Shown here piece after piece: positions 3,503 through 57,205 of a DNA stretch of 64,000 bases. The first letter of the stretch is position 1; every line of letters begins with the position of its first letter. The notes under the pieces were generated by a model. That model searched no databases and had not been told where the DNA came from. It worked only from the letters and a program-made list of their open reading frames with translations. Both the position numbers and the translations under genes were made by a program. Source of the stretch: a virus; the IMG/VR virus record IMGVR_UViG_3300048080_000243; one strand, 5' to 3'.

Positions 3503-3877
3503 TTAGATCAGCGGCGGACCTTCAAATGGGTCCGGCTCTCCCCTCGCCGCCAACTGTACACGCACCACGGCACGAAGCCGGTCAAACTCCTTGTAATCCT
3601 GAATCCGGCCGTGGCGAAGAAGACAAAGACGGTTCTGGTACGCGATCACCGATTCGGCCTTGGCAGCTTCGAGCAGTTCATCCAACTGCAGCCGGGCCTT
3701 GCCCAGCTCGAAACGAAGAAGTCCTGTTTCCTGCAGAGCCTGAGCGATCAACGCGTCGAGATCCTGCGCCATACCTGAATCCGGGTCGGGCCGGTGACTC
3801 CCGATCTCACTGCTGTGGCCGAGATCGGCGCTGTCCCAGTCCTGCAGGAACTTCTGCTTCAGTTCGTCGATGGTCAT
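3503..3877 (-). CDS. hypothetical protein
   Basis: 124 aa; ATG preceded by CGAAATAAC-N5. Confidence 0.7.
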   Translation of the reverse strand: MTIDELKQKFLQDWDSADLGHSSEIGSHRPDPDSGMAQDLDALIAQALQETGLLRFELGKARLQLDELLEAAKAESVIAYQNRLCLLRHGRIQDYKEFDRLRAVVRVQLAARGEPDPFEGPPLI

Positions 3878-3882
3878 GGATG

Positions 3883-3891
3883 GTTATTTCG
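3883..3891 (-). promoter_or_regulatory. CGAAATAAC motif, copy 1 (5 nt before ATG 3877)
   Basis: Exact 9-mer found 5 times, always on the coding strand. Confidence 0.65.
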
Positions 3892-4510
3892 CCTCTCGGG
3901 TGAACACGACCGTTGCCATCGTTGCACGCTTCCACTTGTAGAACCGCCATTCATGTTGAAGTTCCCACCCTCCCACCTTCATGTGATACAGCAACGCCTT
4001 GTTGCTCTTGAGGTAGTCATAGAGGTCATCCCAGTCAAACACCCGCTTGCCGCGAGGGTTTCGAACGATCATGTGTCCCACGACCATCGTGTAGCCATTT
4101 GTTTGATTCACGACGTCCAACACACTCGCCAACCGGTTCAACGTGGCTCGTGGTTCTTTGGGGATGTCCACGTACACAAGCTCTGGTGCCAACATACCCC
4201 GCCGCAAGTATGAATCCATCATTTGAACCAAGTCAGCGTTTTCAATCGTGGCGTAAGGATACACTTTCTTGATCACGGCAGACGACACAGCGCAACGCTC
4301 TGGGTTCACTTCGGCCGCGTAATACTGGCCTTGTGTGATCACACCCTCAGAGATCGCCTGCACGATCTCCCCGCCTTTTTTGAGCGATTCGTATTTGCCG
4401 CAGGCGGTCCAATACTGACGAAAGTCAGGAATGGCACGACGGCCTGAGTGACGACGGTACACATCGAACACCGTCTTCAACCGCGCGGGGTCTTTGTCAG
4501 CCCACTTCAT
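3884..4510 (-). CDS. hypothetical protein, possible degenerate Rossmann/SAM-MTase-like fold
   Basis: YWTACG, YYAAEVNP, IENADL and LVYVDI are spaced like class I MTase strands; coupled to the helicase. The fold call is weak. Confidence 0.6.
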   Translation of the reverse strand: MKWADKDPARLKTVFDVYRRHSGRRAIPDFRQYWTACGKYESLKKGGEIVQAISEGVITQGQYYAAEVNPERCAVSSAVIKKVYPYATIENADLVQMMDSYLRRGMLAPELVYVDIPKEPRATLNRLASVLDVVNQTNGYTMVVGHMIVRNPRGKRVFDWDDLYDYLKSNKALLYHMKVGGWELQHEWRFYKWKRATMATVVFTREAK

Positions 4511-7500
4511 GCGGCCAGCCTGCGTTCAAACTGTCGCCGAACCGCCCAACGCGTATTTCCTGTAAGTTGAAACATTGACAAACCGTACTGGCCTGACGGT
4601 CGTGAAGGAAACCCCGGAAGCTTGCCAGAATGTACCAGTTTTTGATACTCGACGTGAGTCGTGATGTTGAAACGCTGGCGCACAATCGGCCACACTTTCA
4701 GAAACTCCTGTTTTGAAAGTATGTACACCTTGTCCAAAAACACAGATATGGACATCTTGTAAGTTTGATGCGGATTCCACGGGAATCCAGGCGGTAGCTT
4801 ACCAGCTCGTTTGGCGGACTGATACTGACTTGTGCTTGTAATGTGCAGACGCTTTCGAAGCGCAGGCCACAAACTCCAAAATTCCTCTTTGGTCATCGTC
4901 CTAGTTTTACCAACAAACAACAGCCAAGGTACACCGTACTCCACGGTAGGATCAGGAGGAAATCCGGGTGGAAGTTTTCCCGCAAGAAAAGCTTGCCTAT
5001 AAGTCAAATGTGTGTCGAGTCGCAAACGCTGTCGTACTATTGGCCAAAACCGCAAAAATTCGTTTTTCGAAAACTTGAGTGTTTTTCCAGCCACGTCATG
5101 CCACTCGATGCCGTAAGTCATTTTTGGATTTCTGGGAAACCCAACTGGAAGTTTGCCCGCTGCATGAGCCCTCAAATAGTCCTGGCCAGACTTGATGCCT
5201 ACTTGCTGTCTTAGGCCGGGAAGTTGTTGCAAAAAATGTTGTTTAGAAAGATACCGGCCACCAACAATTTTCCTCCATGTCATGTCATACGCCCATTTTG
5301 GAGAACCCGGACATTTGACGTCCAGCGTACCCGCCTTGCGACAACTGTGGTACATTCTTTCCGAGTATATATTTTTGAATTTCAAATAACTCCTAAATTC
5401 TGTCAAAGTAAAAACCACTACAGGAGGCGACAACTGGGACACCAAATCGGCCAAGGACACATCAAAGTGGTTGCGGAGACGAGAATTGACACCGCTCCAC
5501 TGCAGACCAGGGTGTCCCTTGACAGGACCTCCATGTACAGTCGGTAACGCGCCGAATCCGATCGATTCGATAATGATATCTTTGATGCCAGATAACGACA
5601 GGTAACGTGCTTGTTCAAGCCCTTGCAGTTCCGCTACAAGGTCTTTCAGACCACTATTGAAACGGTGATGCCACCATGAATTAGCTGCGCCCCAAACTCT
5701 CCCATCGCCGTGTATACGTCCACTGTTAGCTGTAGGCCACTCACCAGTTCTAGAATGATGAGCACGCACGTAACAAACAATCAAATCTCTCGACCAAGGA
5801 ATACCACGTTTTTTGTTTATGGCACCGAGCTGTTGACTTGTGATTTGAACTGTTGCAATACGCAAACAGTCCAAAGCATCGTTTTGAATGTCGAGATTTT
5901 GACCTACACCCGCAGCATCCCGCATCTCCGCGCTACGTTCACTCAGAATCTTCACCAACTCCCTGGCGATCCAATCTTTCTGAAATGTAGTCAGTAAGCT
6001 CCCCTCCACATCTTCGATCGCCTGCCGAGCCAACCCCAACACATCCGCGCTTGAAGCATCCCTTACACTCTTGCGCAACCCTTCCATGTACTCCGACACA
6101 GTGCCAAGATCTTGCAACCGCTCCAAAGCAACTCGTTCTTCATCCGTGTGTTTGAGAGTCAATTCGGGAACTTTCCACAACACACTCATAGCAAGATGGG
6201 CTACAATTGCGCCCATTGAATCCGTGATCCACTCCGCGACCGCGTCTTCATCGGCCAGTCTATCCGGAGCCGGAAGATTGACCAAAAACTCAAATTGCTT
6301 TTTCGCGTCACGCAACCCACGGCCCATCATCTGAACAGTTGTGGTCATGGACTTGCGCGGCCCCACAACCACCATGCGCTCCAACGTCGGATCGTCGAAA
6401 CCTTCCTGACACAAACCCATGGCAAACGTCACTTGAAAAGCGTTGCGTCCAGCATCAAGTTCATCACACATCCACTTTACTTTTGTATCACGGGCTGGAC
6501 CTGCTCCACATACAAGATCCAACACTTCCACTTTCTCACCCGTACGAGTTTGCAGAGTAACAGTGTTTCCGTTGGCCTGAACAACAGGCCCAATTGCCTT
6601 CATGTACCGTTTGACCATCCCTTGTTTCCGCGCTTCAAGGGCGGTCCCCGGCAAACCACACAGAGGAGATTGCGTCCAAGGCGTATAAATCAGCGTTCTC
6701 TTGGACGGTTGTTCGTACAACTTCGCTATTGTTTTTTCCGGGTGCCCCGCCACAAAACCAAGCTTCACCTTTTTCAACACCGACATTGAGTCAAGGTGCT
6801 GTCGCATCGTCATGTTGTAAACGTCGAAACGGGCCTTCGGGCCAAATAGCCGCCTGTCCTCCACGATGGCCCTTCGGTCCGAACGCATCCACGTAGCCGT
6901 AGCCAAAACCAAGCGACCCGGCTGCTCCTCCACGTAAAAATGATAGATCTTTCCCAACTCGTTCTGCGCTTTTTCTTCAATCTGGTCCTTGTATTTCTCC
7001 TGACCTTCGCTGTCCGTGTACTTGCCGTGGTGCGCTTCATCAACAAAAAGATGGACGTTTTTCCAACACTCTTTCCACCCCTGCGGGTCTTGCTCTTGGA
7101 GACGTTGGTACGCCTGAACCAGAGCCGTGTGAGTGCACACAACCACACGCTGGGAAACCGACCCGCGTGGACTCTCTCTCAAAAAGTTCACCAGACGGTC
7201 AATCGTTTTACCGTGTTCATGCATCAGAACAACAGAGGGAACGAACTCCACCACGTCTTCGCCGGGGTTGTCGCCAAAACGCACTCGCACCGGTTCCCTG
7301 TGCATGAAATCGAACGATCTCAAGATGATGGGCTTTGTTGGCGCAACAAGGATGGCCCGTGAAGTGGGGTCTTTACGAATGGCGTCGTGACAAAGCCCCA
7401 AGATCACCGCACTTTTCCCGGCACCAGTCGCCATCTTGATAAGTGCACAGCGCGATTCACGCAACCTGTGCCAAGCTTTCATCTGGTGCGGCCGAGCGAC

Positions 7501-7644
7501 CAGAGCCCCGTCTTCGTCCTTCCTCTCAGGGGCCGCCTTTGTTCCGCACACATACTCGTCCGTCAGACTCGCCCAAGGCGCAGTTTCCACCACAACGCCG
7601 TCAGCGTGTGAGGGGTTCGGAAGTTGGCCAAGTTCGGGTGTCAT
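4507..7644 (-). CDS. SF2 (ResIII/DEAH-like) helicase with C-terminal repeat arrays
   Basis: ARPHQ Q-motif, MATGAGKS, FVDEAHH, ATAT, QMMGRGLRD; two ~57 aa repeats followed by five ~59 aa repeats. Confidence 0.9.
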   Translation of the reverse strand: MTPELGQLPNPSHADGVVVETAPWASLTDEYVCGTKAAPERKDEDGALVARPHQMKAWHRLRESRCALIKMATGAGKSAVILGLCHDAIRKDPTSRAILVAPTKPIILRSFDFMHREPVRVRFGDNPGEDVVEFVPSVVLMHEHGKTIDRLVNFLRESPRGSVSQRVVVCTHTALVQAYQRLQEQDPQGWKECWKNVHLFVDEAHHGKYTDSEGQEKYKDQIEEKAQNELGKIYHFYVEEQPGRLVLATATWMRSDRRAIVEDRRLFGPKARFDVYNMTMRQHLDSMSVLKKVKLGFVAGHPEKTIAKLYEQPSKRTLIYTPWTQSPLCGLPGTALEARKQGMVKRYMKAIGPVVQANGNTVTLQTRTGEKVEVLDLVCGAGPARDTKVKWMCDELDAGRNAFQVTFAMGLCQEGFDDPTLERMVVVGPRKSMTTTVQMMGRGLRDAKKQFEFLVNLPAPDRLADEDAVAEWITDSMGAIVAHLAMSVLWKVPELTLKHTDEERVALERLQDLGTVSEYMEGLRKSVRDASSADVLGLARQAIEDVEGSLLTTFQKDWIARELVKILSERSAEMRDAAGVGQNLDIQNDALDCLRIATVQITSQQLGAINKKRGIPWSRDLIVCYVRAHHSRTGEWPTANSGRIHGDGRVWGAANSWWHHRFNSGLKDLVAELQGLEQARYLSLSGIKDIIIESIGFGALPTVHGGPVKGHPGLQWSGVNSRLRNHFDVSLADLVSQLSPPVVVFTLTEFRSYLKFKNIYSERMYHSCRKAGTLDVKCPGSPKWAYDMTWRKIVGGRYLSKQHFLQQLPGLRQQVGIKSGQDYLRAHAAGKLPVGFPRNPKMTYGIEWHDVAGKTLKFSKNEFLRFWPIVRQRLRLDTHLTYRQAFLAGKLPPGFPPDPTVEYGVPWLLFVGKTRTMTKEEFWSLWPALRKRLHITSTSQYQSAKRAGKLPPGFPWNPHQTYKMSISVFLDKVYILSKQEFLKVWPIVRQRFNITTHVEYQKLVHSGKLPGFPSRPSGQYGLSMFQLTGNTRWAVRRQFERRLAA
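4540..5420 (-). repeat. five degenerate ~59-aa (174-177 bp) coding repeats in the helicase C-terminus
   Basis: GKLPxGFPxxP recurs at about 4612, 4786, 4963 and 5140, with a more diverged copy near 5300. Confidence 0.85.
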
Positions 7645-7649
7645 GCCCA

Positions 7650-7658
7650 GTTATTTCG
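7650..7658 (-). promoter_or_regulatory. CGAAATAAC motif, copy 2 (5 nt before helicase ATG 7644)
   Basis: GTCCGAAATAAC-TGGGC-ATG. Confidence 0.7.
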
Positions 7659-7878
7659 GACTCCCATCTATCTTCCTGCACTCTTCACAATGACACTCCA
7701 CCGGGATCTCCGTCGCCCCCTCCGGAACGTGCTCCCAGCACCAATGCGACATGCCCCATTCCTCATCCTTCTCGTAGTAGGCCGCGTGCCCGCACTTGTC
7801 GCACGTAACCCACATAACTACACGGCCGTCTTCGATCCACACCCGGCCGAGCTTCGGATGTTCAGCCCACCGTCCCAC
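7651..7878 (-). CDS. small Cys-rich hypothetical protein
   Basis: CDKCG and CHCEEC; GTG start inferred. Confidence 0.55.
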   Translation of the reverse strand: MGRWAEHPKLGRVWIEDGRVVMWVTCDKCGHAAYYEKDEEWGMSHWCWEHVPEGATEIPVECHCEECRKIDGSPK

Positions 7879-8086: not shown

Positions 8087-8087
8087 A

Positions 8088-10440: not shown

Positions 10441-10442
10441 GG

Positions 10443-11725: not shown

Positions 11726-11726
11726 C

Positions 11727-12860: not shown

Positions 12861-13034
12861 TTATTTCTTTCGGCCCTTCTTTTCATGGATCGTGTGAGCG
12901 TGAGGAGAGACAGGAGGATACTCAAGTCGAATGACCCGCTTTTCCAGTCTCTCTAGCCTGTCCCCGCCCACCCACACCAGGAAGAAAAACCCGACCACTC
13001 CCAAAAACGCCATCAGGAAAACGAAGAAAAGCAT
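12861..13034 (-). CDS. small membrane protein (not in the ORF track)
   Basis: MLFFVFLMAFLGVVGFFFLVWVG...KKGRKK, 57 aa, GGAGG RBS. Confidence 0.65.
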   Translation of the reverse strand: MLFFVFLMAFLGVVGFFFLVWVGGDRLERLEKRVIRLEYPPVSPHAHTIHEKKGRKK

Positions 13035-29238: not shown

Positions 29239-29670
29239 TTACGTTACTATACCACGCGGCCGAAGCTTCATCAATTCCAACGCGGCCAGATTCACCTTCA
29301 CCCGCTCAATCTTGGTCTTAGTGCTGAGGGTAGAATCCATCCACCCACAGTACAGCTTCATGTTGTGCCGTGCCCTCAGCCAACACGCATGCGGGTTCAC
29401 AACAAGCAAACAGTCGTTGCAAGTCGTCGGCGTTTGGCCATCCATCTGCCGAGCGTGGTTTAGCTGTTTCCGGACTTCCGGTTTGGGCTTCAATTCTTCT
29501 GGTGTCACCCAGCGAAAGTGCACACTGTTGGGCCCAAGACGTTTGATGTGTATGACTTTGTCGAGAAACGCCACGTAGATGGCGTGGCCCACTTCCAGAT
29601 GCCGAATCGCTTCTTCCACCATCGCCCGCAATTCGGGCTGGGGGATGGCGGAGACATCGCTCTCAGTCAC
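29239..29670 (-). CDS. hypothetical protein
   Basis: 143 aa, CNDC. Confidence 0.65.
   Translation of the reverse strand: MTESDVSAIPQPELRAMVEEAIRHLEVGHAIYVAFLDKVIHIKRLGPNSVHFRWVTPEELKPKPEVRKQLNHARQMDGQTPTTCNDCLLVVNPHACWLRARHNMKLYCGWMDSTLSTKTKIERVKVNLAALELMKLRPRGIVT
29246..29274 (-). promoter_or_regulatory. sigma70-like promoter for the modular-protein operon
   Basis: TTGATG-17 nt-TATAGT with TGn extension, about 40 nt before ATG 29206 (CAGGAGG RBS). Confidence 0.7.
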
Positions 29671-31217: not shown

Positions 31218-33235
31218 CCGGACGTCCTCCCGCCACGACCACGGCTTGAACCGCGCCCGCCAACAGGCAAACCAACAGAACGCCTCGGCATGATGGATGT
31301 CGGCAGCATGTTTGGCGGCAAAGTCGGGTCCGGGGGCACCTGTGAGTTATTTCGGATAGCGGTCATGTCAGCAGAAGAGACTGGGAAACCTTGGGCCTTG
31401 GGCGAGAACGGGTTGCCACTGGCGTTCCCAGCCGACGTGTGCTGGGCCTTCACCCCGACGCTCCGTCTCTTAGCGAACGCCCACAATGCTGCTTGCGGGT
31501 CTTTTAGCCTACCATTGAGCAGTCTGGCGCACCCGGCGAGAGCGTCCGCGATGTCCTTGGAACCAAAAGTCGGCGACCCCTCAGGCGGGTGATCCACTTT
31601 GTTCGACCCCACTCGGACGAGCCGCGTCAACTCCTGCGTCTGTAACGGGTGGTCGAGAAGTTCGGCCGCGCCCGTGTAAATCAGGCTCTGCAAAAGCGCG
31701 TAATCGGCATAGCTGACCACGTGCTCTTCCGTGTACACGCGATGACGCTTCAAAGCTTCTTGCAGCGTGGCTGAGTTCCACGCATCACACCCGAACATCC
31801 TAATCCGAAGACCGCGCCGCATAAGGTCAAGAATCAAAGCTTCGACGCTGGCAACCGCCACTTGAAGCTGGCGCGACGGGTCGGGCTGCCACACGACGAC
31901 TGCCTCTTCGATCAGCTTATTCACGGTCGTCTGTTGAATCTCGCCTGAAGTTTCAGACTTGATCTCGACCTTCACAGGTTCGCCACGGGCGATAACAAGC
32001 GCTGCACGGTTACTGACTCGCCCAAGGTCAACCCACCCAACGCGCGAATGTTGCATTTCCTGTACGCTGTTGATAAGCCACTCACCGATTTCCTGCCCGA
32101 GCATCCTCTCACGCTTCGAACGCCCGTTCATGGCGTCCACAAGTTCCACTTCCACCAACGTGGAGCGAGTGCGGAAGATGGGAATACGATTCTTGTTGAT
32201 ACATTCGGTGATGCGTTCCGGGTACTCGAAAAACGCCCCAGCGATCTTGGGCGGGATCGTGAGGTACTTGGCCTTGGCGTCCGCCGGGGTAGTCTTGAAC
32301 TCCTTCTCGAAGTCAATCGGGATCTTGAATCCTTCAAAGTCGAAAGTCTGATCCGAGAAACTGCCCGGCGGCCGGACTTCCCACGTTGACGCGCGTGCAA
32401 CTTTGAACCGCAGCGTCTCGTTGAGCGCCTGCTCGTACATTCGCATCGTGAAATCCGTGTCCGACTCCGAACGCGGAAACGACATAACGATCCCACGCCA
32501 TCGTCCGGGGAAGCGGGAGTTCGCCGATGTCGTGAGCGTGCTGTAAATCTTGTCGCCGTTGGCAATCTTGGTCTCGCTCTTGAAGGCCGAAGCCTCGTCC
32601 ATGACCCAGAACAAGATGTCGTGTCCTTCGTAGCTCTCCTGTTGGCTGTGCTCAGAGATGGCGCGAATGCCTTTCGGAAAGTTGATGCGGTCTTCTTTGA
32701 TCCGCACGTACTCGCTGGCCGGACTGAAGCTAGCCATGGACGGAACCATGCGCCCCCGGTGGAACATGCGGTAACGCTTCCGAAGCCAAACCCACGCCTT
32801 CACCAACTCCACAAGCGTGGCGAAATACACATCACTCGCCTGATCCGAACTGTACGCCACGTTGACCAGACTGATGAAGCCACGGCCCTTGAAACCCAAC
32901 CACTCGCGTGGCTTGTGCAGACACAGGAGGATGTAGATAACGTACATGGCGATTGCACGCGCCATCGTGTCTTTGCCGGAACCCTTGCCGAGAAGCCAAA
33001 TGGCCGTACTCGCGCGGTCAAGGTCGCGCTCGAAGAACCTCGTCCCGTCGGGGCCGACGAAGTCCTCCATGAACTCGTACTGCTTGTCGGAAAACCGGAA
33101 GTTCAGGTGTTCCGGCGACTCACAAAACTCGCGAAGTTTGATAGGACGTTCGATCCAGTCGGTGACAGTGCTAATGCTGGCGATATCACCTTTGCCGTCC
33201 TTCAAACCCGCTTCGACAATACTGCGAAGCGACAT
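31211..33235 (-). CDS. terL: terminase large subunit
   Basis: Walker A GKGSGKD, VNVAYS, Walker B FWVMDEAS, RNase H-like VDLG, CDAWN, KDIADALAG. Confidence 0.92.
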   Translation of the reverse strand: MSLRSIVEAGLKDGKGDIASISTVTDWIERPIKLREFCESPEHLNFRFSDKQYEFMEDFVGPDGTRFFERDLDRASTAIWLLGKGSGKDTMARAIAMYVIYILLCLHKPREWLGFKGRGFISLVNVAYSSDQASDVYFATLVELVKAWVWLRKRYRMFHRGRMVPSMASFSPASEYVRIKEDRINFPKGIRAISEHSQQESYEGHDILFWVMDEASAFKSETKIANGDKIYSTLTTSANSRFPGRWRGIVMSFPRSESDTDFTMRMYEQALNETLRFKVARASTWEVRPPGSFSDQTFDFEGFKIPIDFEKEFKTTPADAKAKYLTIPPKIAGAFFEYPERITECINKNRIPIFRTRSTLVEVELVDAMNGRSKRERMLGQEIGEWLINSVQEMQHSRVGWVDLGRVSNRAALVIARGEPVKVEIKSETSGEIQQTTVNKLIEEAVVVWQPDPSRQLQVAVASVEALILDLMRRGLRIRMFGCDAWNSATLQEALKRHRVYTEEHVVSYADYALLQSLIYTGAAELLDHPLQTQELTRLVRVGSNKVDHPPEGSPTFGSKDIADALAGCARLLNGRLKDPQAALWAFAKRRSVGVKAQHTSAGNASGNPFSPKAQGFPVSSADMTAIRNNSQVPPDPTLPPNMLPTSIMPRRSVGLPVGGRGSSRGRGGRTSGW
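31346..31354 (-). promoter_or_regulatory. CGAAATAAC motif, copy 3 (inside the terL 3' end)
   Basis: Exact match; in-frame GTG 6 nt downstream; about 130 nt before gene 31217. Confidence 0.45.
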
Positions 33236-36792: not shown

Positions 36793-36821
36793 ATTTTAGC
36801 CCCTGACGGCCTCGGCGTCAA
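36793..36821 (-). promoter_or_regulatory. sigma70-like promoter of the lysis cassette with TGACG-N7-CGTCA palindrome
   Basis: TTGACG-17 nt-TAAAAT; inverted repeat 36804-36820 over the -35 and spacer. Confidence 0.75.
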
Positions 36822-37312
36822 GAGATGGAGACTTCGTTGCCCGCCACATCACGACGACGCCCTCCATGCGGACAATACCCATAAGCGCCTAGACTAGCAT
36901 TGCAGTTTGAACACAAAACTCTAAACCCGCTTGGAAACTTACGTCTTTTCAAATCGTAGTACACGGACTGGCCGCCCCCACCCACCAAACGACGGTGCTT
37001 CATTCCACCACCTCCAACATGATCCAAAACCAAAAACTCTAACTTGTTTTCACTACAACAGTCACAACGCAAAGTCCCGCCGGAATAGTGCGACAGTGCT
37101 TTCATTCTGTTGACCCAGCGATGACACCTGCCATTCTTTACAAACCACCGGCGATTTACCGCTCGCTTCCACGGTCGCATACAATCCCTGCAGTACCCCT
37201 GAAAACCGTCATATCGGGATTTGTTTTTGCCAAACTTTACGCCGGGACTCCCGTTCGATCTCTTGCACTTTGGGCAGATTTTAGGGGGCCGTTCCTGTCC
37301 ACAACCTTCCAC
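36818..37312 (-). CDS. HNH (His-Me finger) homing endonuclease overlapping the purZ 3' end
   Basis: CPKC, YCRDC, CDCC..LVLDH..VLCSNCN; resembles 48663-49238. Confidence 0.85.
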   Translation of the reverse strand: MEGCGQERPPKICPKCKRSNGSPGVKFGKNKSRYDGFQGYCRDCMRPWKRAVNRRWFVKNGRCHRWVNRMKALSHYSGGTLRCDCCSENKLEFLVLDHVGGGGMKHRRLVGGGGQSVYYDLKRRKFPSGFRVLCSNCNASLGAYGYCPHGGRRRDVAGNEVSIS

Positions 37313-38328
37313 CCTTCACCACCTGTCCCGACAAACGCAACAGGACACTTGGCCACCTCCTCCAAATACGACACGAAATCTTTGGTTTTCTGCGACAAAT
37401 CATACCATTCAGTCTTACCTTCGTCAATGCTAGACAAGTAGTCAGCGAAGGTCAGGGCGATCTGGTTCGGCTGGTTGAGTTGCACAGCCCGGTGAAAGAG
37501 TTCGGCGTCCCACTCACTCACCCGCCGGACCTTCTTGGTCACGGTCGTGCGTTCAAGCACCGGCTTGCCGACGCGCTTGCTCATTTCATCCCACGTCAGT
37601 TCGTGGAACATGGGCCCGGAGTTCCCGGCCACCCGGATGGGATAGGTCCGTACCACCAGCATGATGTCTGTGACGAGTCGAGGAGAAATCCCGACGTCGG
37701 CACAAAGCTGAGCCGCGTTCGTGTCGGCCGTCGTACAGTACGGCCAAGGACCGTGAATCAAACTCAGACCGGAGCCCTGCGTGCCTTCGAGCAGGATCGA
37801 AGAACCGCCCCGGTGCCAGGCGAGGATGTAATCGATCGTCCTCTCCTTCACCCACGGCCGAAGTTCCGGCACGTCACGAACCAGACGAAACTTCGACGGG
37901 TCGCGCATCAGGCGGCCAAGTCTGGCAGCGCCGACACCCTCTCCGGTCGAGCCGATTCTCTTGTGAAGTTCCCCATCGACCCCGCCCTCGGCCTCGTGCT
38001 CGGTCTTGCTCAGCACGGTCGCCGCTCCGTCAATCATGATGCGGCTCTCGATGTTGGGGTCCACCTGCTTGATCATTTCCAGTTCCTGCAAGAACTGTTC
38101 GGGGGACACCACCGCCCCCGCCCCGATCACGAGGTTGGCGTCGGGGTTGGTCCACCCGCAAGGAATGCTTTGCATCTTGTAAAGCTTCCCGTCGCAGTAG
38201 AACGAATGGCCAGCATTCGGGCCCCCGACGCGAACATGCACGCCGTAATCACGGGCGATATGGTTGACGATCACGCCCTTTCCCTCGGAGCCGTACTGAG
38301 CACCCACCACGACCAAGACTTTGCTCAT
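37237..38328 (-). CDS. purZ: PurZ/PurZ0-like aminodeoxyadenylosuccinate synthetase (PurA paralogue)
   Basis: GAQYGSEGKG (Ser at the PurA Asp13 position), GPNAGH, IGSTGEG, EGTQG, PYCT, PIRVAGNSG, ERTTVTKKVRRV, TFADY. Confidence 0.85.
   Translation of the reverse strand: MSKVLVVVGAQYGSEGKGVIVNHIARDYGVHVRVGGPNAGHSFYCDGKLYKMQSIPCGWTNPDANLVIGAGAVVSPEQFLQELEMIKQVDPNIESRIMIDGAATVLSKTEHEAEGGVDGELHKRIGSTGEGVGAARLGRLMRDPSKFRLVRDVPELRPWVKERTIDYILAWHRGGSSILLEGTQGSGLSLIHGPWPYCTTADTNAAQLCADVGISPRLVTDIMLVVRTYPIRVAGNSGPMFHELTWDEMSKRVGKPVLERTTVTKKVRRVSEWDAELFHRAVQLNQPNQIALTFADYLSSIDEGKTEWYDLSQKTKDFVSYLEEVAKCPVAFVGTGGEGWKVVDRNGPLKSAQSARDRTGVPA
37399..37427 (-). promoter_or_regulatory. sigma70-like promoter embedded in purZ coding sequence, positioned to drive the HNH
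   Basis: TTGACG-17 nt-TATGAT with TGn extension. Confidence 0.7.
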
Positions 38329-38337
38329 GTCTTCTCC

Positions 38338-38883
38338 CTATCGATGACCGAGGTTGAGATACGAAGAGACCGCCGACACCACCGCCCCCGGCGCTACACG
38401 CGACGTGTCGATCACCAGATCCGCGAGCATGGTCAGTTCATCCACTTTCATCTCGGTCCGGTTCTTTCGGACTTCGTCGTAGGACCGCATTTCCTTGACC
38501 TTGCTCACCCTTCCCTTGTACCGGGAAACGAGCGTCCTTTGCGGTGCGCGAAGGTGGATATGGAACACGGCCGGACCGAAAGACCGGCGGATCGCCCGAA
38601 TCTGAGGCTCGATACGCACAGCATCCACGACCAGCCGTGCGCCGGGGTTGTTGTCCACCATTTCATGGACGCCATCACACACCCACTCCCCGTCACGCTT
38701 CTTGTCGAGAAGCTGGCCGAAAGTCTGCAAGCGACTCCGGTGCGCGACACTGTCGTGCGCGAGCTTCATCAGGTACTCGCGCGTCTTGAACACGTCGAAA
38801 TCGTGCTGCCGGATCAGCCCATCGCAGAGCGTGGACTTCCCGACCGCCACAGGGCCCGAGACCAACACAATCAAGCGTTCCAT
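38338..38883 (-). CDS. P-loop nucleotide (NMP-type) kinase
   Basis: LVSGPVAVGKST, LVVDAVR, lid LVSRY, ADLVIDT; 9 nt upstream of purZ. Confidence 0.82.
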   Translation of the reverse strand: MERLIVLVSGPVAVGKSTLCDGLIRQHDFDVFKTREYLMKLAHDSVAHRSRLQTFGQLLDKKRDGEWVCDGVHEMVDNNPGARLVVDAVRIEPQIRAIRRSFGPAVFHIHLRAPQRTLVSRYKGRVSKVKEMRSYDEVRKNRTEMKVDELTMLADLVIDTSRVAPGAVVSAVSSYLNLGHR

Positions 38884-38888: not shown

Positions 38889-38897
38889 GTTATTTCG
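38889..38897 (-). promoter_or_regulatory. CGAAATAAC motif, copy 4 (intergenic, 5 nt before the kinase ATG)
   Basis: GTCCGAAATAAC-CCGGC-ATG in a 20-nt gap with no SD. Confidence 0.75.
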
Positions 38898-48586: not shown

Positions 48587-48592
48587 GGGTGT

Positions 48593-48620
48593 AGTGTACC
48601 ACCCGAACACGACGGCACAA
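48593..48620 (-). promoter_or_regulatory. leaderless sigma70-like promoter for the HAD-kinase gene
   Basis: TTGTGC-16 nt-TACACT-6 nt-ATG with TGn extension. Confidence 0.6.
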
Positions 48621-48626
48621 AACGTA

Positions 48627-48656
48627 TTGACACGAGTTACCTACAAGTGGTACAGT
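48627..48656 (+). promoter_or_regulatory. leaderless sigma70-like promoter for the plus-strand HNH
   Basis: TTGACA-18 nt-TACAGT-6 nt-ATG with TGn extension. Confidence 0.65.
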
Positions 48657-48662
48657 ATTCGC

Positions 48663-49238
48663 ATGTTAGGTAACCGCGAAAAGAAAAACACTTACATGCG
48701 CGCGTACAAAAGCAAACACAGGACACAAGCACGGAAAAATGGAAATTGTACGTACTGCTTTGCCCGCAAAGCCACACCGGGCAAACTCGGGTGCCGTCCA
48801 TGCCTCGACAAAGCCATCGCAAAATACAAGGCCAGATACCCCGCTAAAAAAGCAAACGGGCTGTGCGTAAGGTGTGGTCACAGGAAAACCGCACGGGGTG
48901 TCACCCTGTGCCAAAAATGTGGCACTAGGGTAAACTCGTCGAGAAACAAAAGACGCAACCAAGCAAAATTACAGGCAATAGCCAAATACGGCGGGGCATG
49001 CTCTTGCTGTGGAGAAACACACCCTGATTTTCTAAATATAGATCACTTGAAAAATAACGGGGGCCAGCACAGAAAAACCCTTGGCCGCTGGGGTCCCGCT
49101 TTCTTCGAATGGCTAAAGACTCAAAAGTACCCCAAAGGCTACGACGTAAAATGTTTCAACTGCAACATCGCCAGGTCATTCAAATACAACAAGGGCGTGT
49201 GCCCTCACAAGCAGAAATCTACCGTTAGGACGTTTTAG
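48663..49238 (+). CDS. HNH homing endonuclease with tandem Zn-finger repeats (only plus-strand gene)
   Basis: CTYC..CRPC, CVRC..CQKC, YGGACSCCG..FLNIDHL..VKCFNCN..CPH; A-rich. Confidence 0.88.
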   Translation: MLGNREKKNTYMRAYKSKHRTQARKNGNCTYCFARKATPGKLGCRPCLDKAIAKYKARYPAKKANGLCVRCGHRKTARGVTLCQKCGTRVNSSRNKRRNQAKLQAIAKYGGACSCCGETHPDFLNIDHLKNNGGQHRKTLGRWGPAFFEWLKTQKYPKGYDVKCFNCNIARSFKYNKGVCPHKQKSTVRTF

Positions 49239-52839: not shown

Positions 52840-52840
52840 C

Positions 52841-54820
52841 TCACCCTACCTTCACGTGGCTGACGCCGTTCTTGCTCTCGACCCACAGGGCAGCATCGTT
52901 ACCAACCATGTTCCGCAAACGCTCGTCATGAGAAATAATCAAAACACGGCCGAAGTTCTCCTCGCTGCTCTGCAACAGCTTCAATGCCCGCTGCAGCCCG
53001 TCTTGGTCGAGGTCATCGGTAATCTCGTCCACGAACAGCATCGTGGACTTCGCACGCTCGCCACGATGCAAACGGAGGATCTTGGACAAGGCCAGACGGA
53101 GCGCAAGCACCACACGGCGCTTCTCCCCACCGGAACATCCGTTGAGCGGCTGTTTCTCCTGTCCCACGATCACGCGGATGTCCAGCTTGTCCTGCACCGA
53201 CCCGCTCTTGGTCTCGACCTTCGAATCCATCTCGATGGACACCGGTTTCGAGGACAGTTCCCGCAGGTAGTTGTTGGTCTCAGCTTCCAGAATCGGGATA
53301 GCCCGGTCGAGCAGGAGCGACCGGAGTCCGTGTTGGCCGAACGCCTCGGAAAGCGTAGCCCACACCAGCGCATCGCGTTCCTTCTCGACAAGCTCCGTCT
53401 TGGCGACTTCCAGTTCGGATTCAAGCTTGGCCCGCATCTCACGCTGCGCCTCGACCCGACCGATGGCCGTTTCGATACCGGAAATGTCACGATTCAATAC
53501 ATTGATCTTCACGTCTAAGTCGGCCTGCTCATTGAGACTGGCCTCAATGCCATCCAGTTTTTGTGCAAGGGCCTTTTGAGATACGAGCAGTTCTTTCAAT
53601 GTCTCCCCCGCCACACGAGCGCGTTCCTTCACCGCCTCTTCATCTACGCGGGCACGTTCTTTTGTCTCCAAATAGCTCTTGTATCTGGCAACCCGCGTGT
53701 TTTGGTTCCTGTCGTACTCCGCGTCACTGATTTCTTGATTCATCTTTTGCAAATCGGCCGTAAGACGAACCAACAACGCCTGTTTGGGTTCGCCTTTCAA
53801 CACCGACAAGCAAAACGGACACTGATCCACCGCTTCAACCTCTTTGATCCGCTCCTGTATCTCACTGGCCTGTCGCTGGCACGCCTGTTTGGTCGCACTG
53901 CTACCCTTAGCGTTAGCGTAGGCCGTCGCAGCGTCGGCTACGGTACTTGCGCACGCGACATCCGCATCGTCCAGCTCAACTTCTTCCAACACCCCAACGC
54001 TTGCAACAACAGCTTTCGCGGACGTCAACGCACTAGACGCTTGAACCACTTTTCGATCCATGGCGGACTTTTCTTGAGCCAGTTCCACCCCACGTTTCGA
54101 CAACGTAGGGTCGAGCTTGGTCATCAATTTCGCGCGTTGCGCCTTTATCGTATCCGCTTCCGACTTCAGCGCATCGAGGTCAACCTTGTTCTCAACTTCG
54201 ATCCCAGCAAGTTGAGTCTCGGTCGCCCGCACTTTGGCCTTCGCCGCGTCCAACGTCCTCGACGCCACAAGCGCCGCGTCGGACGCTTTCTTCTTGGCGA
54301 CTTCAAGCACACCCGCCCCAAGCAGGCGACACACGAACTCTTTCCGGCCCTTGTCGGTCGCCGACAAGAACTCCGAACCCTCAGCCTGCCCGAACAAGTA
54401 CGTGTTGCGGAAAAGCGAAAAGTCCATCCCGAGCACCTGATTGAGACGCTGCTGCTTCTCGGCGATGGAACCACCCCAGACCTTATCGTACTTGACCACA
54501 AACTCGCTGGACCCCGAGTCCCCGGCCTTCTTGGTGCGAGTGACTTCGTAAAACGCTCCCTCCAAGCTGACGATCATGTGAACGGAGCACGACGGCTGGC
54601 CGTGCCGGATCAAGTCCGACGCGCTGATCTCCCGGATCGTCTCGCCGAACAAACACCACGAAACGGCCTCAAAGATCGTAGACTTACCCGCGCCGTTGCT
54701 GTCGTGCGGCCGGTCATTGTTGGAACCGAGGATCAACGTCAACGGTGGCAGTTGGCTAAACGACACAGACGTGTCCTGGTGACTCATAAAGTCGCGAATG
54801 TCAAGCCGGAGGATGTCCAT
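52841..54820 (-). CDS. sbcC: Rad50/SbcC (T4 gp46-like) ATPase
   Basis: DFMSH, NGAGKST, GQ Q-loop, coiled coil with CPFC hook, CSGGE signature, LFVDE, IISH. Confidence 0.92.
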   Translation of the reverse strand: MDILRLDIRDFMSHQDTSVSFSQLPPLTLILGSNNDRPHDSNGAGKSTIFEAVSWCLFGETIREISASDLIRHGQPSCSVHMIVSLEGAFYEVTRTKKAGDSGSSEFVVKYDKVWGGSIAEKQQRLNQVLGMDFSLFRNTYLFGQAEGSEFLSATDKGRKEFVCRLLGAGVLEVAKKKASDAALVASRTLDAAKAKVRATETQLAGIEVENKVDLDALKSEADTIKAQRAKLMTKLDPTLSKRGVELAQEKSAMDRKVVQASSALTSAKAVVASVGVLEEVELDDADVACASTVADAATAYANAKGSSATKQACQRQASEIQERIKEVEAVDQCPFCLSVLKGEPKQALLVRLTADLQKMNQEISDAEYDRNQNTRVARYKSYLETKERARVDEEAVKERARVAGETLKELLVSQKALAQKLDGIEASLNEQADLDVKINVLNRDISGIETAIGRVEAQREMRAKLESELEVAKTELVEKERDALVWATLSEAFGQHGLRSLLLDRAIPILEAETNNYLRELSSKPVSIEMDSKVETKSGSVQDKLDIRVIVGQEKQPLNGCSGGEKRRVVLALRLALSKILRLHRGERAKSTMLFVDEITDDLDQDGLQRALKLLQSSEENFGRVLIISHDERLRNMVGNDAALWVESKNGVSHVKVG

Positions 54821-55020
54821 TATGTCAGTTCTTTCGATTCCTTCTGCTTCCACGCCCACGCCACCGCAACACACTCCATTGTCGCCTTCAACGCCGCATC
54901 AAAAGTTGTAGCACTTCCGCTTCCCAACGTCTCACCGCCGGACCCCGCGTTCTGGACACGCCAGTAAAACCCCACCTCAGACTGTGAAATGCTCAACTCG
55001 GCGCTAATACGAACGTCCAT
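54820..55020 (-). CDS. small hypothetical protein
   Basis: 66 aa, TAATG overlaps. Confidence 0.55.
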   Translation of the reverse strand: MDVRISAELSISQSEVGFYWRVQNAGSGGETLGSGSATTFDAALKATMECVAVAWAWKQKESKELT

Positions 55021-55382
55021 TACGCCCCGCCCTTAGCGTCACACGCCGCCCAAAGCCTTCTAACCTCCGCGACCAGGGCAGGCACGTCCGAACGCGCCGA
55101 TACGACGAAGTCGGCGTCACGGAATGTCTGCTCGTCTTCGTAGTGGTCGTCGCAGATTTCCTCCACGCCGCCATCCTTTTCGATCTGACGCGGTGACGGG
55201 TGCAGCTTGCGATCACCAAAGTTCCAGATACAGAACGTGCCCTGCCCACCCTCAACTTTGCGAACAGGACTCAGGATCTCGGTTCCGTAATACTTGCCTT
55301 CGAGCGGTTCCAACGTCCATGGCCCCGGCGTAGCTGCACTGGCTCGGGCGTCAATGGCGTTCAACTCATCGGCGGTCATCAC
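55020..55382 (-). CDS. Ead/Ea22-like phage protein
   Basis: AATPGPW...DADFVVSARSDVPALVAEVRRL. Confidence 0.7.
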   Translation of the reverse strand: MMTADELNAIDARASAATPGPWTLEPLEGKYYGTEILSPVRKVEGGQGTFCIWNFGDRKLHPSPRQIEKDGGVEEICDDHYEDEQTFRDADFVVSARSDVPALVAEVRRLWAACDAKGGA

Positions 55383-55561
55383 ATCTCCTCTCGTCCTACC
55401 ACTACCTTACATCGTTTCGTGTACCAAGGCGGACTCGGCTTCTCAGGGTTCAAAATCATAAGCCCGTGACAAAACAGGTAACCCCTCTTGGTCTTGTGTA
55501 CTTGACTTCGCCAACGCGCCCCATGCTTCGAACAGCGGCCAACAGACTTCTTACCGGCCAC
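55379..55561 (-). CDS. small basic hypothetical protein
   Basis: GTG overlapping the Mre11 TAG; 60 aa. Confidence 0.5.
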   Translation of the reverse strand: MAGKKSVGRCSKHGARWRSQVHKTKRGYLFCHGLMILNPEKPSPPWYTKRCKVVVGREEM

Positions 55562-56706
55562 TAACGTGCTTCTGTTAGGATTTGCACGCCCCGCTGGAAC
55601 GCCTCTTTCTTGACGTCCTTTGGCAGGTCGTCGCGGGACTTGAGCCACGCCCGCAGCATCTCGTCGTAGTTGAGTTCTTTGATCTCCGTCGGCTTCCGCT
55701 CCTCGTCCACGCGGTTGCACTCGATGGACACATTCATCGGCGCGAATCCGCCTTCGATCTCGGCCGCCACTTTCACCAGATCGATCTTCCGGAAGGCCGC
55801 CCGCGATCCCTTGAAGCGAAGCTTCACAATGGCCCCCTTGTCGCCGCCGAGATCCGGCAAACCGGAGAAGCCTTCTTGGTCCAAATCGATGTCCAGCATC
55901 ACGAATCGCTTCGCCGATTTCACCTGCACGAACTCCCACACATTCGTGCCGGGGTCCCACGACAGGAAGCCCTTATCTTCGTTGCGTTCGCCGAAGTCCA
56001 CGCGATCAATGCTTCCCGGAATCACGATCTTCTCTTGGATCGTCTGGTGCTTATGCAAGTGCCCGCTGACGATAAGGTCAAAGCGGGCCGGATGAAGGTC
56101 GTCCGTCGAAAGATACGGATTCGGAAGCTCGAAATCGCCGGGCCCGACCTTCGCGCCGGAAACCGCTCCGTGCACCACCAGCACACGGCGGGTGTCCTTG
56201 CGTGCTTTGGACCGCTCCCACAACGCGGCCATAGCTTCGACGTCCACCGTCTTCTCGCCCAGCCCCACAGCGATGTAGTATTCAACACCCTCACGCTCGA
56301 TCACGGCCGGTTTGCTCACCACCGAAAAGCGCTTCTGAAACCCTCCGAACCGCGCGAGTTCCTTGTAGATGGTCAGACTCGTCTGCGTCGGCAGGATCAT
56401 ATCCTGTCCATCGTGGCTGGGCGTCCCCGGCATGATGATCACCCAACGATCATCGCGATCTTGAAGGAACTGAGCGAACAGACGGAAAAACTCCAACCGC
56501 TCGGTGTCGCTGGGATTGCGCCGATGAAAGGCGTCACCAGCAAAGACGATTCCGGTGACGTTGTTCTCGTTGGCGTACGCGAGCATTTCCTCGGCGCACG
56601 TGATGGTCGCCGCCAAGCTACTGTTACGGCCCGTCTCGGGGTCGATCTTGCCCCACGTGTTCCCGGCACCGAAGTGCCAGTCAGCGGTGAAAATCACGCG
56701 CCCCAT
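55561..56706 (-). CDS. sbcD: Mre11/SbcD (T4 gp47-like) metallophosphoesterase nuclease
   Basis: TADWH, AGDAFH, PGTPSHD, VHG, SGHLH, PGSIDRVDFGE. Confidence 0.9.
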   Translation of the reverse strand: MGRVIFTADWHFGAGNTWGKIDPETGRNSSLAATITCAEEMLAYANENNVTGIVFAGDAFHRRNPSDTERLEFFRLFAQFLQDRDDRWVIIMPGTPSHDGQDMILPTQTSLTIYKELARFGGFQKRFSVVSKPAVIEREGVEYYIAVGLGEKTVDVEAMAALWERSKARKDTRRVLVVHGAVSGAKVGPGDFELPNPYLSTDDLHPARFDLIVSGHLHKHQTIQEKIVIPGSIDRVDFGERNEDKGFLSWDPGTNVWEFVQVKSAKRFVMLDIDLDQEGFSGLPDLGGDKGAIVKLRFKGSRAAFRKIDLVKVAAEIEGGFAPMNVSIECNRVDEERKPTEIKELNYDEMLRAWLKSRDDLPKDVKKEAFQRGVQILTEAR

Positions 56707-56714
56707 ACAGCGAC

Positions 56715-56876
56715 CTACAAACCGGCTCTTCGGATTAGCAGTGGAGAGCTGCTTCCCGAAGATACTGACCATGTATTACGGTTCCCCTCGACCGCCAGGT
56801 ATGAGCAGCCATCCAACTGTGGACGCTTGCTTCGGTCTCGGCCGCTGGTCGTACCGGTTTGCAGGTCCACTCTCAT
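56715..56876 (-). CDS. 53-aa ORF behind the CGAAATAAC motif (not in the track)
   Basis: ATG at the exact motif spacing plus ATGA overlap; ends 8 nt before Mre11. Confidence 0.45.
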   Translation of the reverse strand: MRVDLQTGTTSGRDRSKRPQLDGCSYLAVEGNRNTWSVSSGSSSPLLIRRAGL

Positions 56877-57205
56877 GCCCCGTTATTTCGGGACGGGAGT
56901 TCCACGTTCTTGCGTTCGATGCCAGCCGCTTTCAAAATGGCCCACGCTTCAGGCGGCCAGTCTTCGATACGCGCAGCGCGAAAGTAGTTGTGCGCCTGTT
57001 TAGTACGCACGACAGGCCGGAACTGAGCACCGACACGCTTGCACTTGAAACACCAATGTACCTCCCACGCGCCGTCCGTCGTGCGAGCCCATTCGCCGAT
57101 AGAACCGTCACAGATTTTTTCCGGCGGCAGTCCATACGCCACCAACCCGTCAGGGGAGTAATGCGCGTACGACCACCACTTGCCAGCCTCGAATCGGAAT
57201 CCCAT
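56873..57205 (-). CDS. hypothetical protein
   Basis: 110 aa, CFKC. Confidence 0.6.
   Translation of the reverse strand: MGFRFEAGKWWSYAHYSPDGLVAYGLPPEKICDGSIGEWARTTDGAWEVHWCFKCKRVGAQFRPVVRTKQAHNYFRAARIEDWPPEAWAILKAAGIERKNVELPSRNNGA
56882..56890 (-). promoter_or_regulatory. CGAAATAAC motif, copy 5 (5 nt before ATG 56876)
   Basis: CCGAAATAAC-GGGGC-ATG; here the TAA is not a stop codon. Confidence 0.65.

What the first reader, a model, noticed from the sequence alone, without database searches (positions are those of the whole stretch)
3875..56890. Exact CGAAATAAC motif 5 nt before ATG: candidate phage-specific leaderless promoter
Seen: the 9-mer occurs 5 times by my manual scan (3883, 7650, 31346, 38889, 56882), always on the coding strand. 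In 4 of the 5 an ATG starts exactly 5 nt later (genes at 3877, helicase, kinase-purZ, and a 53-aa ORF before Mre11/Rad50). A rough expectation at 60% GC is about 0.1 copies per strand. In two cases the TAA doubles as a stop codon, but at 38889 the motif is intergenic and at 56882 the TAA is out of frame, so Lys-stop bias does not explain it. Inference: a -10-like element for a phage sigma or transcription factor that produces leaderless mRNA, preferentially for DNA-metabolism genes.
Basis: partly seen in the sequence, partly recalled or inferred. Interest (0 to 1): 0.72.

Follow-up and report, generated by a model that had tools for sequence, protein, structure and literature searches.

The report
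Start-abutting promoter-like box in Z-genome phage
An uncultured sediment phage with a 2-aminoadenine (PurZ) gene set places an exact 9-base box five bases before the ATG of its DNA-replication and nucleotide genes. The box most likely serves as a promoter, read by the phage's own sigma factor, that starts leaderless messages, but no RNA data exist to prove it.

Summary
CGAAATAAC occurs 5 times in the window, always on the coding (minus) strand, against 0.32 expected. Four copies lie exactly 5 nt before an ATG start. The same phage is present in a second assembly. That assembly adds a sixth copy just beyond the window, also 5 nt before an ATG, so 5 of 6 copies fit (P about 3e-9). A one-mismatch copy (CGAAAGAAC-N5-ATG) sits 15 nt after the strongest intrinsic terminator.

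The AT core AAATAA falls at -12 to -7 relative to the A of the ATG, with C at -1. This is the standard -10/start-site geometry of leaderless genes. There is no properly spaced Shine-Dalgarno and no conserved -35.

The gene immediately upstream of the sixth copy encodes a divergent sigma-70-family factor, supported by a profile search and a fold search. All genes led by the box, where annotated, belong to DNA metabolism. The polymerase block and the Mre11/SbcC block lie in the early/replication region, the kinase-PurZ pair lies among late genes, and the helicase and the nucleotidase/methylase block lie after the head genes.

Best reading (about 0.5): a single-element phage promoter read by the phage sigma, giving leaderless mRNAs. 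Main rival (about 0.3): an mRNA-level start-associated sequence like those of Cluster K mycobacteriophages. The phage lineage is an orphan, and the one 66%-identical relative does not keep the exact box. This scan has noted similar start-abutting motifs in other phages.

The parts
56882..56890 (-). Site B: exact CGAAATAAC, then 5 nt (GGGGC), then ATG at 56876-56874. This ATG opens a 53-aa ORF that ends 8 nt before the probable true Mre11 start (ATG 56706, MGRVIFTADWH). SbcC follows.
57211..57219 (-). Site G: one-mismatch variant CGAAAGAAC, then 5 nt (CATCT), then ATG at 57205 (110-aa gene). It lies 15 nt after the terminator.
   Evidence: Chance that one of five such 9-mers abuts a real start at N5 is about 0.007 (my estimate from about 100 starts in 72 kb).
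57234..57261 (-). Strong intrinsic terminator: 12-bp stem with 9 G-C pairs, followed by a T tract. It is the strongest in the window and lies just upstream of site G.
   Evidence: (MFE -35.5 kcal/mol, z -3.65)
38889..38897 (-). Site C: exact box in a 20-nt intergenic gap, then 5 nt (CCGGC), then ATG 38883 of a P-loop nucleotide kinase. PurZ follows 9 nt after the kinase stop.
37237..38883 (-). Kinase (38883..38338) and PurZ-type adenylosuccinate synthetase (38328..37237; N-terminus GAQYGSEGKG). This is the unit led by site C.
7650..7658 (-). Site D: exact box whose TAA is the stop of the upstream 107-aa gene, then 5 nt (TGGGC), then ATG 7644 of a 1045-aa SF2 helicase.
3883..3891 (-). Site E: exact box whose TAA is the stop of the upstream 208-aa gene, then 5 nt (CATCC), then ATG 3877 of a 124-aa gene. 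That gene heads a block with a 5'-nucleotidase and an N6/N4 methyltransferase.
31346..31354 (-). Site F: exact box inside the large-terminase gene, in frame (R-N-N), with no ATG at +5 (a GTG lies at +6 in the TerL frame). Probably a chance or unused copy.
58941..58949 (-). Site H: two-mismatch variant CGAAAGGAC, then 5 nt, then GTG 58935 (132-aa gene). It contains an AAGGA Shine-Dalgarno, so it may be an ordinary ribosome-binding site.
12864..12872 (-). Site I: two-mismatch variant CGAAAGAAA, then 5 nt, then ATG 12858 (77-aa gene). It overlaps a second near-copy, AGAAATAAC.

Best explanation
The box is the single recognition element (a -10-type element) of a phage-specific promoter class. After early expression of the phage's own sigma-70-family factor (246 aa, encoded just beyond the window at L004:2132-2872), host core RNA polymerase carrying this sigma binds (C)CGAAATAAC. 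It melts the AAATAA core at -12..-7 and starts RNA at the A of the ATG, which lies 6 nt after the core and follows C at -1. The resulting mRNAs are leaderless or nearly so, which is why these genes carry no properly spaced Shine-Dalgarno and always use ATG. The class drives DNA-replication, recombination and nucleotide-metabolism units: the 79-aa/217-aa/polymerase block, the 110-aa gene, the 53-aa ORF with Mre11 and SbcC, the kinase-PurZ pair, the helicase, and the 124-aa to nucleotidase to methylase block. Some of these units sit among or after late genes. Shown here: the motif, its statistics, its geometry, the absence of a properly spaced SD and of a -35, the sigma gene, and the gene functions. 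Inferred: that this sigma reads this box, that RNA starts at the ATG, and that the host translates leaderless mRNA.
For: (1) There are 6 exact copies on the coding strand, and 5 have ATG at +5. (2) Geometry matches that of known leaderless genes: the AT core lies at -12..-7 from the first base of the start codon, with pyrimidine at -1 and purine at +1 at every site; all five exact-box starts and site G use ATG, and only the SD-like variant H uses GTG. In the genome as a whole only about 52% of starts are ATG and 47% have C at -1. (3) No properly spaced SD core lies upstream of the ATG at any of the five sites; the only core found, GAGG at site E, sits about 14 nt from the ATG, too far to act. 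About half of the other genes show GGAG/GAGG/AGGA there. (4) A phage sigma exists. The profile of the P0106 family hits B. subtilis SigA across regions 2-4 (E 7e-5) and ECF sigma region 2 (E 5e-4). The top 50 Foldseek PDB hits of the model are all sigma factors, best E 1.5e-4, and the Swiss-Prot AlphaFold hits are sigma-H, sigma-E and SigA. Its gene ends 3 nt before the sixth box. (5) A k-mer census finds no other repeated AT-rich start-proximal motif that could serve as this sigma's promoter. (6) Functional coherence: the annotated genes led by the box are DNA-metabolism genes even where embedded among or placed after late genes. (7) Variant site G sits 15 nt after a strong terminator, where a new transcript must begin within about 28 nt of the ATG. 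(8) Precedents exist. PhiEco32 sigma gp36 reads middle and late promoters defined by one element, AATGTA, centred at -11.5 (PMC12276001). Thermus phage phiYS40 makes most middle/late mRNAs leaderless (PMC3594737).
Against: No RNA data exist. AAATAA lacks the T at -12 and the T at -7 of TATAAT/TANNNT. No -35 is conserved (alignment A1), although the sigma has a sigma-4-like C-terminal domain. In the only closer relative (sigma 66% identical, L009) the orthologous 17-nt gap reads CGAAAGTAT at the same spacing, with 6 of 9 positions identical. More distant relatives place an SD there (L011; L010). Three boxes overlap upstream coding sequence in tightly packed operons, so co-transcription with upstream genes is also likely. 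The host, and thus its capacity for leaderless translation, is unknown. About half of all genes here lack a clear SD, so absence of an SD is not unique to box genes.
Confidence: 0.5

Rival explanations
1. The box acts at the mRNA level as a start-associated element, like the SAS of Cluster K mycobacteriophages. On this reading it sits in polycistronic mRNA at the ribosome-binding position. There it is bound by a phage or host factor (protein, RNA or ribosome) that switches translation of DNA-metabolism genes on or off, as a RegA-like operator or a non-SD initiation signal would.
For: The box occupies -14..-6, exactly where GGAGG lies in other genes. Cluster K SAS share many traits: asymmetric, one orientation, 3-9 bp from the start, strong ATG preference, non-structural genes only, and the upstream stop codon sometimes lies inside the motif (PMC3203893). 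In Adephagia the SAS lie downstream of separate promoters, so they are transcribed (PMC11373665). Every upstream gene except the one at site G ends 0-20 nt before the ATG, so coupling could feed ribosomes to these starts. Sites B-D can place AAAUAA in a small hairpin loop.
Against: The box has no SD core and only 4 nt (GAAA) can pair with a 16S 3' tail. No RegA-type or other RNA-binding domain was found among about 75 proteins scanned. The hairpin is not consistent across sites (0 to -9 kcal/mol; combined P about 0.03, driven by one site). The invariant 5-nt spacing and the canonical -10/TSS register would be coincidental under this reading. Site G follows a strong terminator with no upstream ORF to couple to.
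Confidence: 0.3
2. The box is a degenerate Shine-Dalgarno or A/U-rich enhancer (GAAA[T/G][A/G]A in the register of GAAAGGAGG). It works with termination-reinitiation and is kept by descent or local copying, not by a dedicated factor.
For: Variants grade towards an SD: CGAAAGAAC (G), CGAAAGGAC (H, with AAGGA and GTG at N5). The register equals that of an extended SD. AATAAC also occurs 1 and 11 nt before two other starts, the latter with its own SD.
Against: Weak, low-specificity signals do not explain six identical 9-10-mers with invariant flanking C's and an invariant spacer length. The two core G's that matter for pairing are exactly the ones replaced.
Confidence: 0.08
3. The repeats are chance or an artefact of codon usage.
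For: One copy (site F) is ordinary coding sequence. Purine-rich relatives such as CGAAAGAAC are common in coding DNA (5 copies).
Against: Expected 0.03-0.32 copies against 6 observed. P(5 of 6 with ATG at +5) is 3.5e-9.
Confidence: 0.01

Closest known systems
PhiEco32 gp36-dependent middle/late promoters (phage-encoded distant sigma homolog; single element AATGTA centred at -11.5; PMC12276001)
   Same: A phage-encoded divergent sigma-70-family protein. Promoters are defined by one short A/T-rich element near -10, with no conserved -35. A small conserved partner gene lies nearby (here a 79-aa protein next to the sigma; function untested).
   Different: The box sequence differs. Here the box abuts the start codon, so transcripts would be leaderless. 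The genes served are replication genes, not late genes. Nothing has been tested biochemically.
Leaderless middle/late transcripts of Thermus phage phiYS40, and leaderless-gene promoters of Actinomycetota (-10 TANNNT about 6-7 nt before the start codon)
   Same: A -10-type element lies at -12..-7 from the first base of an ATG, with no SD.
   Different: Those use the host primary sigma and a TANNNT-type hexamer. Here the hexamer is AAATAA within a longer invariant 9-10-mer, and a phage sigma is the presumed reader. The actinobacterial part of this comparison rests on my own knowledge. The phiYS40 part is cited from PMC3594737.
Start-associated sequences (SAS) of Cluster K mycobacteriophages (GGGATAGGAGCCC; PMC3203893, PMC11373665, PMC12699233)
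   Same: A short asymmetric repeat in one orientation, a few bases before ATG starts of non-structural genes. The upstream stop codon sometimes lies inside it. The function is unproven.
   Different: SAS contain the AGGAG Shine-Dalgarno core, have 3-9 bp variable spacing, and are conserved across a whole phage cluster. This box has no SD core, has fixed 5-nt spacing, and is known from one orphan genome.
T4 late promoters (TATAAATA read by gp55) and the T4 RegA translational operators
   Same: The T4 late promoter is a single 8-bp A/T-rich -10-type element read by a phage sigma-like protein. RegA sites overlap the start regions of replication genes.
   Different: T4 late transcripts have leaders with an SD. 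No gp55/gp33 or RegA homolog was detected here. This comparison is from my own knowledge and was not tested beyond the Pfam and PHROG scans.

Membership tests
Promoter producing leaderless mRNA | -10-type element placed so that transcription starts on the first base of the start codon (hexamer at about -12..-7) | tested here: met
   AAATAA lies at -12..-7 and C at -1 relative to the A of the ATG at all five sites. This tests geometry only.
Promoter producing leaderless mRNA | Primary 5' end mapped at the start codon | not testable with these tools
   Only one DNA run holds the phage and no RNA holder is listed.
Promoter producing leaderless mRNA | AUG start and no Shine-Dalgarno | tested here: met
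   5 of 5 exact-box starts are ATG. No properly spaced SD core is present; the only core in -18..-5 is GAGG at site E, about 14 nt from the ATG.
Promoter producing leaderless mRNA | Match to the sigma-70 -10 consensus TATAAT/TANNNT | tested here: not met
   AAATAA lacks T at -12 and T at -7. The sigma-70 pattern scan lists no site at any of the box positions. A non-canonical sigma would be needed.
Phage-sigma single-element promoters (phiEco32 gp36 type) | Phage encodes its own sigma-70-family factor | tested here: met
   P0106: profile hit to SigA at E 7e-5 and to ECF region 2 at E 5e-4. The Foldseek top 50 are all sigma factors. Weak TIGR02937 and Sigma70_r3 hits.
Phage-sigma single-element promoters (phiEco32 gp36 type) | One conserved element near -10 and no conserved -35 | tested here: met
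   Alignment A1 of six sites has invariant columns only in the 9-mer.
Phage-sigma single-element promoters (phiEco32 gp36 type) | The sigma directs initiation from the element | not testable with these tools
   Needs in vitro transcription or infection transcriptomics.
Start-associated sequences (Cluster K SAS) | Asymmetric repeat, one orientation, a few bp before ATG of non-structural genes | tested here: met
   compared with PMC3203893
Start-associated sequences (Cluster K SAS) | Contains the SD core AGGAG and matches GGGATAGGAGCCC | tested here: not met
   The box has no GGAG, GAGG or AGGA.
Start-associated sequences (Cluster K SAS) | Conserved at orthologous genes across related phages | tested here: inconclusive
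   There is one relative only (L009). Spacing and CGAAA are kept, the rest is changed, 6 of 9 identical.
RegA-type translational operator | Phage encodes a RegA-family or other RNA-binding repressor | tested here: not met
   No such domain was found in about 75 proteins scanned with Pfam, PHROGs or NCBIfam. Orphan proteins could hide one.

The most novel reading that the evidence does not exclude
The P0106-type sigma factor may be adapted to read promoters in hypermodified DNA. In this PurZ phage the non-template -10 core would be ZZZTZZ (2-aminoadenine). One distant homolog of the sigma sits in a contig with 7-deazaguanine synthesis genes (radical SAM, PTPS and GTP cyclohydrolase I families). 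Under this reading the box-plus-sigma pair is a dedicated transcription system for modified genomes. Fusing the promoter to the ATG makes translation of replication genes depend on that system alone.
Probability: 0.12. Interest if true: 0.85.

Novelty: new variant of a known kind. Interest (0 to 1): 0.55.

Why it matters
If the box is a sigma-specific leaderless promoter, one short element would set both transcription and translation of the replication genes of a Z-genome phage. How RNA polymerases recognise promoters in 2-aminoadenine DNA is unknown. A cognate sigma-promoter pair would make that question directly testable in vitro, using core RNAP, this sigma, and A- versus Z-containing templates. 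It also adds a case with a sigma factor attached to the unresolved question of what start-associated sequences in phages do. If it is instead an mRNA element, it would be an SAS without a Shine-Dalgarno, which would also be new.

Tried and rejected
RNA evidence: no RNA holder is listed for this phage. Only one sediment-metagenome DNA run holds it.

Relatives: single-protein scans of IMG/VR with the helicase, polymerase and Mre11 found nothing. The PurZ hits L001 and L002 and the kinase hits L005-L008 belong to other lineages and lack the box. The polymerase has no relative above 31% identity among 5.8 billion proteins. Nucleotide search of GenBank phages gave only a 52-nt PurZ match.

Pattern scans of IMG/VR: the 18-specified-base version gave 0 hits. 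CCGAAATAACNNNNCATG gave 109 contigs with one hit each, consistent with chance. The sigma-family scan of IMG/VR gave none, and the scan of JGI metagenomes gave one distant locus.

Structure and RNA families: the hairpin idea (AAAUAA loop closed by GUCC/GGGC) was tested against random flanks. Support is weak and inconsistent. No Rfam family and no tRNA were found in the window. A search for a -35 element found nothing (alignment A1 and inspection by eye).

5' coding-region folding of box genes does not differ clearly from other genes. No whole genome is held for this window. P23-45 as a leaderless precedent could not be verified because the paper is not held, so phiYS40 was used instead.
Full report
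**What is in the sequence**

The window is a phage genome read almost entirely from the minus strand.
- CGAAATAAC occurs five times, all on that strand. Shuffles expect 0.32 copies.
- Four copies are followed after exactly five bases by an ATG.
- These ATGs open a 124-aa gene (3877), a 1045-aa SF2 helicase (7644), a P-loop kinase followed by PurZ (38883) and a 53-aa ORF ahead of Mre11/SbcC (56876).
- The fifth copy lies in frame inside the large-terminase gene and has no ATG.
It is the upstream stop at two sites, intergenic at one, and out of frame at one.

**Extension beyond the window**

The contig is 73,362 bp and a singleton.
- Two contigs of one Logan assembly are identical to the window over 6611 and 3320 bases. 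They extend it by 4318 and 3433 bases.
- The upstream extension holds a sixth exact copy (L004:2876-2884), 5 nt before the ATG of a 79-aa gene. That gene lies two genes before the DNA polymerase.
- Orthologs of this small protein in three other contigs support this start; the closest (78% identical) begins at the same residue.
- Five of six copies therefore sit at -14..-6 of an ATG. On the joined 71.7 kb the coding strand expects 0.03-0.23 copies. The probability of five ATGs at +5 is 3.5e-9.
- A census of repeated 8-12-mers shows this is the only AT-rich repeat and the only one tied to starts.

**Degenerate copies**

- CGAAAGAAC-N5-ATG precedes a 110-aa gene at 57205. It lies 15 nt after the strongest intrinsic terminator of the window (12-bp stem, -35.5 kcal/mol, z -3.65).
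- CGAAAGGAC-N5-GTG (58935) and CGAAAGAAA-N5-ATG (12858) are weaker candidates. The first contains an ordinary AAGGA Shine-Dalgarno.

**Anatomy**

- Alignment of the six sites shows invariant columns only in the 9-mer. A preceding C occurs in five sites, and four of the five ATG sites have GC just before the ATG. Nothing is conserved upstream.
- Relative to the A of the ATG, the AAATAA core occupies -12..-7 and position -1 is C.
- Many other genes carry GGAGG-type Shine-Dalgarno sequences at this location. The five box genes have no core between box and ATG. About half of all genes here also lack a clear core.
- A small hairpin with AAAUAA in the loop can form at sites B-D. It cannot form at sites A and E. 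Against random flanks the combined support is only P about 0.03.

**A phage sigma factor**

The 246-aa protein encoded at L004:2132-2872 ends 3 nt before the sixth box.
- On its own it gives only weak hits to Sigma70_r3, the sigma-70/ECF superfamily and a CRISPR-associated RpoE-like sigma.
- It has a 66%-identical homolog and three distant ones.
- The family profile matches B. subtilis SigA across regions 2-4 (E 7e-5), ECF sigma region 2 (E 5e-4), and many other sigma factors.
- The AlphaFold model built with the alignment finds only sigma factors among its top 50 PDB matches, best E 1.5e-4. The single-sequence model gave the same families.
- Between the sigma-2-like and sigma-4-like parts lies a CxxCxGxG zinc finger. 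It is present only in the two closest proteins.
- The sigma is flanked by a ribbon-helix-helix gene and by the conserved 79-aa gene.

**Genome layout**

In reading order along the minus strand:
1. Small early genes, the RHH gene and the sigma gene.
2. Box A, the 79-aa gene, a 217-aa gene and the polymerase.
3. A UvsX-like recombinase, the terminator, box G, and box B with Mre11 and SbcC.
4. A polynucleotide kinase and unassigned genes.
5. Box C with the kinase and PurZ.
6. The endolysin, large terminase, large unassigned proteins, portal and head genes.
7. Box D with the helicase.
8. Box E with the 124-aa gene, a nucleotidase and a methyltransferase.

Every exact box at a start leads a unit whose annotated genes are replication, recombination or nucleotide-metabolism genes. 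This holds also where that unit is embedded among late genes (box C) or follows them (boxes D and E). PurZ carries the GSEGKG signature. Its significance as the PurZ hallmark rests on published work that I recall but did not re-read.

**Relatives**

The lineage is an orphan.
- In the one closer relative (L009) the sigma-to-partner gap has the same 17-nt length but reads CGAAAGTAT, with 6 of 9 positions identical.
- In L011 the partner gene has an SD and nearly abuts the sigma gene.
- In L010 a 74-nt gap holds CCGATACAATAAC about 15 nt before an SD-led ATG.
- The exact box is therefore specific to this phage. Whether relatives have their own boxes cannot be seen from 2-4-kb contigs.
- A scan of IMG/VR for the box plus CATG gave only single, chance-level hits.

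**Interpretation**

Best reading: a single-element promoter read by the phage sigma, starting RNA on the ATG.
- It accounts for the invariant spacing and the canonical -10/start-site register.
- It accounts for the pyrimidine-purine step at the start and the exclusive use of ATG at the exact-box starts.
- It accounts for the missing SD and for the existence of a sigma gene with no other candidate promoter motif.
- It accounts for the coherent gene set scattered across the genome and for the variant just after a terminator.
- Precedents are the gp36 promoters of phiEco32 (one element, AATGTA, at -11.5; PMC12276001) and the leaderless middle/late mRNAs of phiYS40 (PMC3594737).

Against this reading:
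- The hexamer is a poor match to the -10 consensus.
- No -35 is conserved.
- The exact box is not conserved in L009.
- The genes are tightly packed.
- No RNA evidence exists.

Main rival: an mRNA-level start-associated sequence. Cluster K mycobacteriophage SAS share most descriptive traits and remain unexplained (PMC3203893; PMC11373665). However, they contain the SD core, which this box lacks. No RNA-binding regulator was detected here.

I put the promoter model at about 0.5, the mRNA-element model at about 0.3, a degenerate SD or A/U enhancer at under 0.1, and chance at about 0.01.

**Earlier notes of this scan**

Notes on other genomes describe similar start-abutting promoter-like motifs in other uncultured phages, one of them also with a phage ECF-type sigma. 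I treat these as leads only. They suggest the arrangement is recurrent and not unique to this phage.

**Verdict**

This is a real, highly non-random start-abutting box. It is most likely a phage-sigma-dependent leaderless promoter for the replication gene class of a Z-genome phage. It is a new variant of known kinds (phage-sigma single-element promoters, leaderless phage transcripts, start-associated sequences). The mechanism is unproven.

Noticed in passing
L004:1857-3129 (just beyond window position 64000, minus strand): A conserved three-gene module: a ribbon-helix-helix protein (78 aa), a sigma-70-family factor (246 aa, with a DnaJ/Q-like CxxCxGxG zinc finger between the sigma-2 and sigma-4 parts) and a 79-aa partner. 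The sigma-partner pair recurs in L009, L010 and L011. The partner may be a co-factor or an anti-sigma.
   Followed up: partly
contig of P0111 (no DNA served): A distant homolog of the phage sigma lies next to genes with radical SAM, PTPS and GTP cyclohydrolase I domains, a queuosine/7-deazaguanine-type gene set. This sigma family therefore appears in at least two phages that carry DNA-hypermodification pathways.
   Followed up: no
window 56706-56876 (minus strand): The Mre11 ORF is open from 56775, but the conserved MGRVIFTADWH start is the ATG at 56706. The 53-aa ORF led by box B ends 8 nt before it and has atypical composition (GC3 0.59, Ser/Arg-rich). It may be a leader ORF and not a real protein.
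   Followed up: partly
window 37399-37427, 36793-36821, 29246-29274 (minus strand): Good sigma-70-type promoter matches on the coding strand: TTGACG-17-TATGAT with TG, TTGACG-17-TAAAAT, and TTGATG-17-TATAGT with TG. They lie ahead of the putative HNH gene, the endolysin and the 462-aa gene. Lysis and late units may therefore use the host sigma while replication units use the box.
   Followed up: no
L005, L006, L007, L008: Homologs of the P-loop kinase (about 40-45% identity) are again linked to PurZ/PurA-like genes and dCTP-deaminase-like (DCD) genes, in contigs that also carry transposases and restriction systems. The kinase-PurZ pairing therefore recurs outside this phage lineage.
   Followed up: no
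L004:3822-6428 (window 63840..61006): The DNA polymerase combines uracil-DNA-glycosylase-like, 3'-5' exonuclease and PolA domains. It has no relative above 31% identity in 5.8 billion proteins.
   Followed up: no
L004:1834-1859: AATAAC also lies 11 nt before the ATG of the RHH gene, with an AGGGAG Shine-Dalgarno in between. Seven of the eight coding-strand AATAAC hexamers in the 71.7 kb lie within 12 nt upstream of a gene start.
   Followed up: partly
window 48610-49225: An unusually long stretch of about 600 nt with poor coding signal. It follows a terminator-like hairpin (49208-49189, minus strand) and holds a plus-strand TTGACA-18-TACAGT match (48627-48656). It may be a regulatory or origin region.
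   Followed up: no
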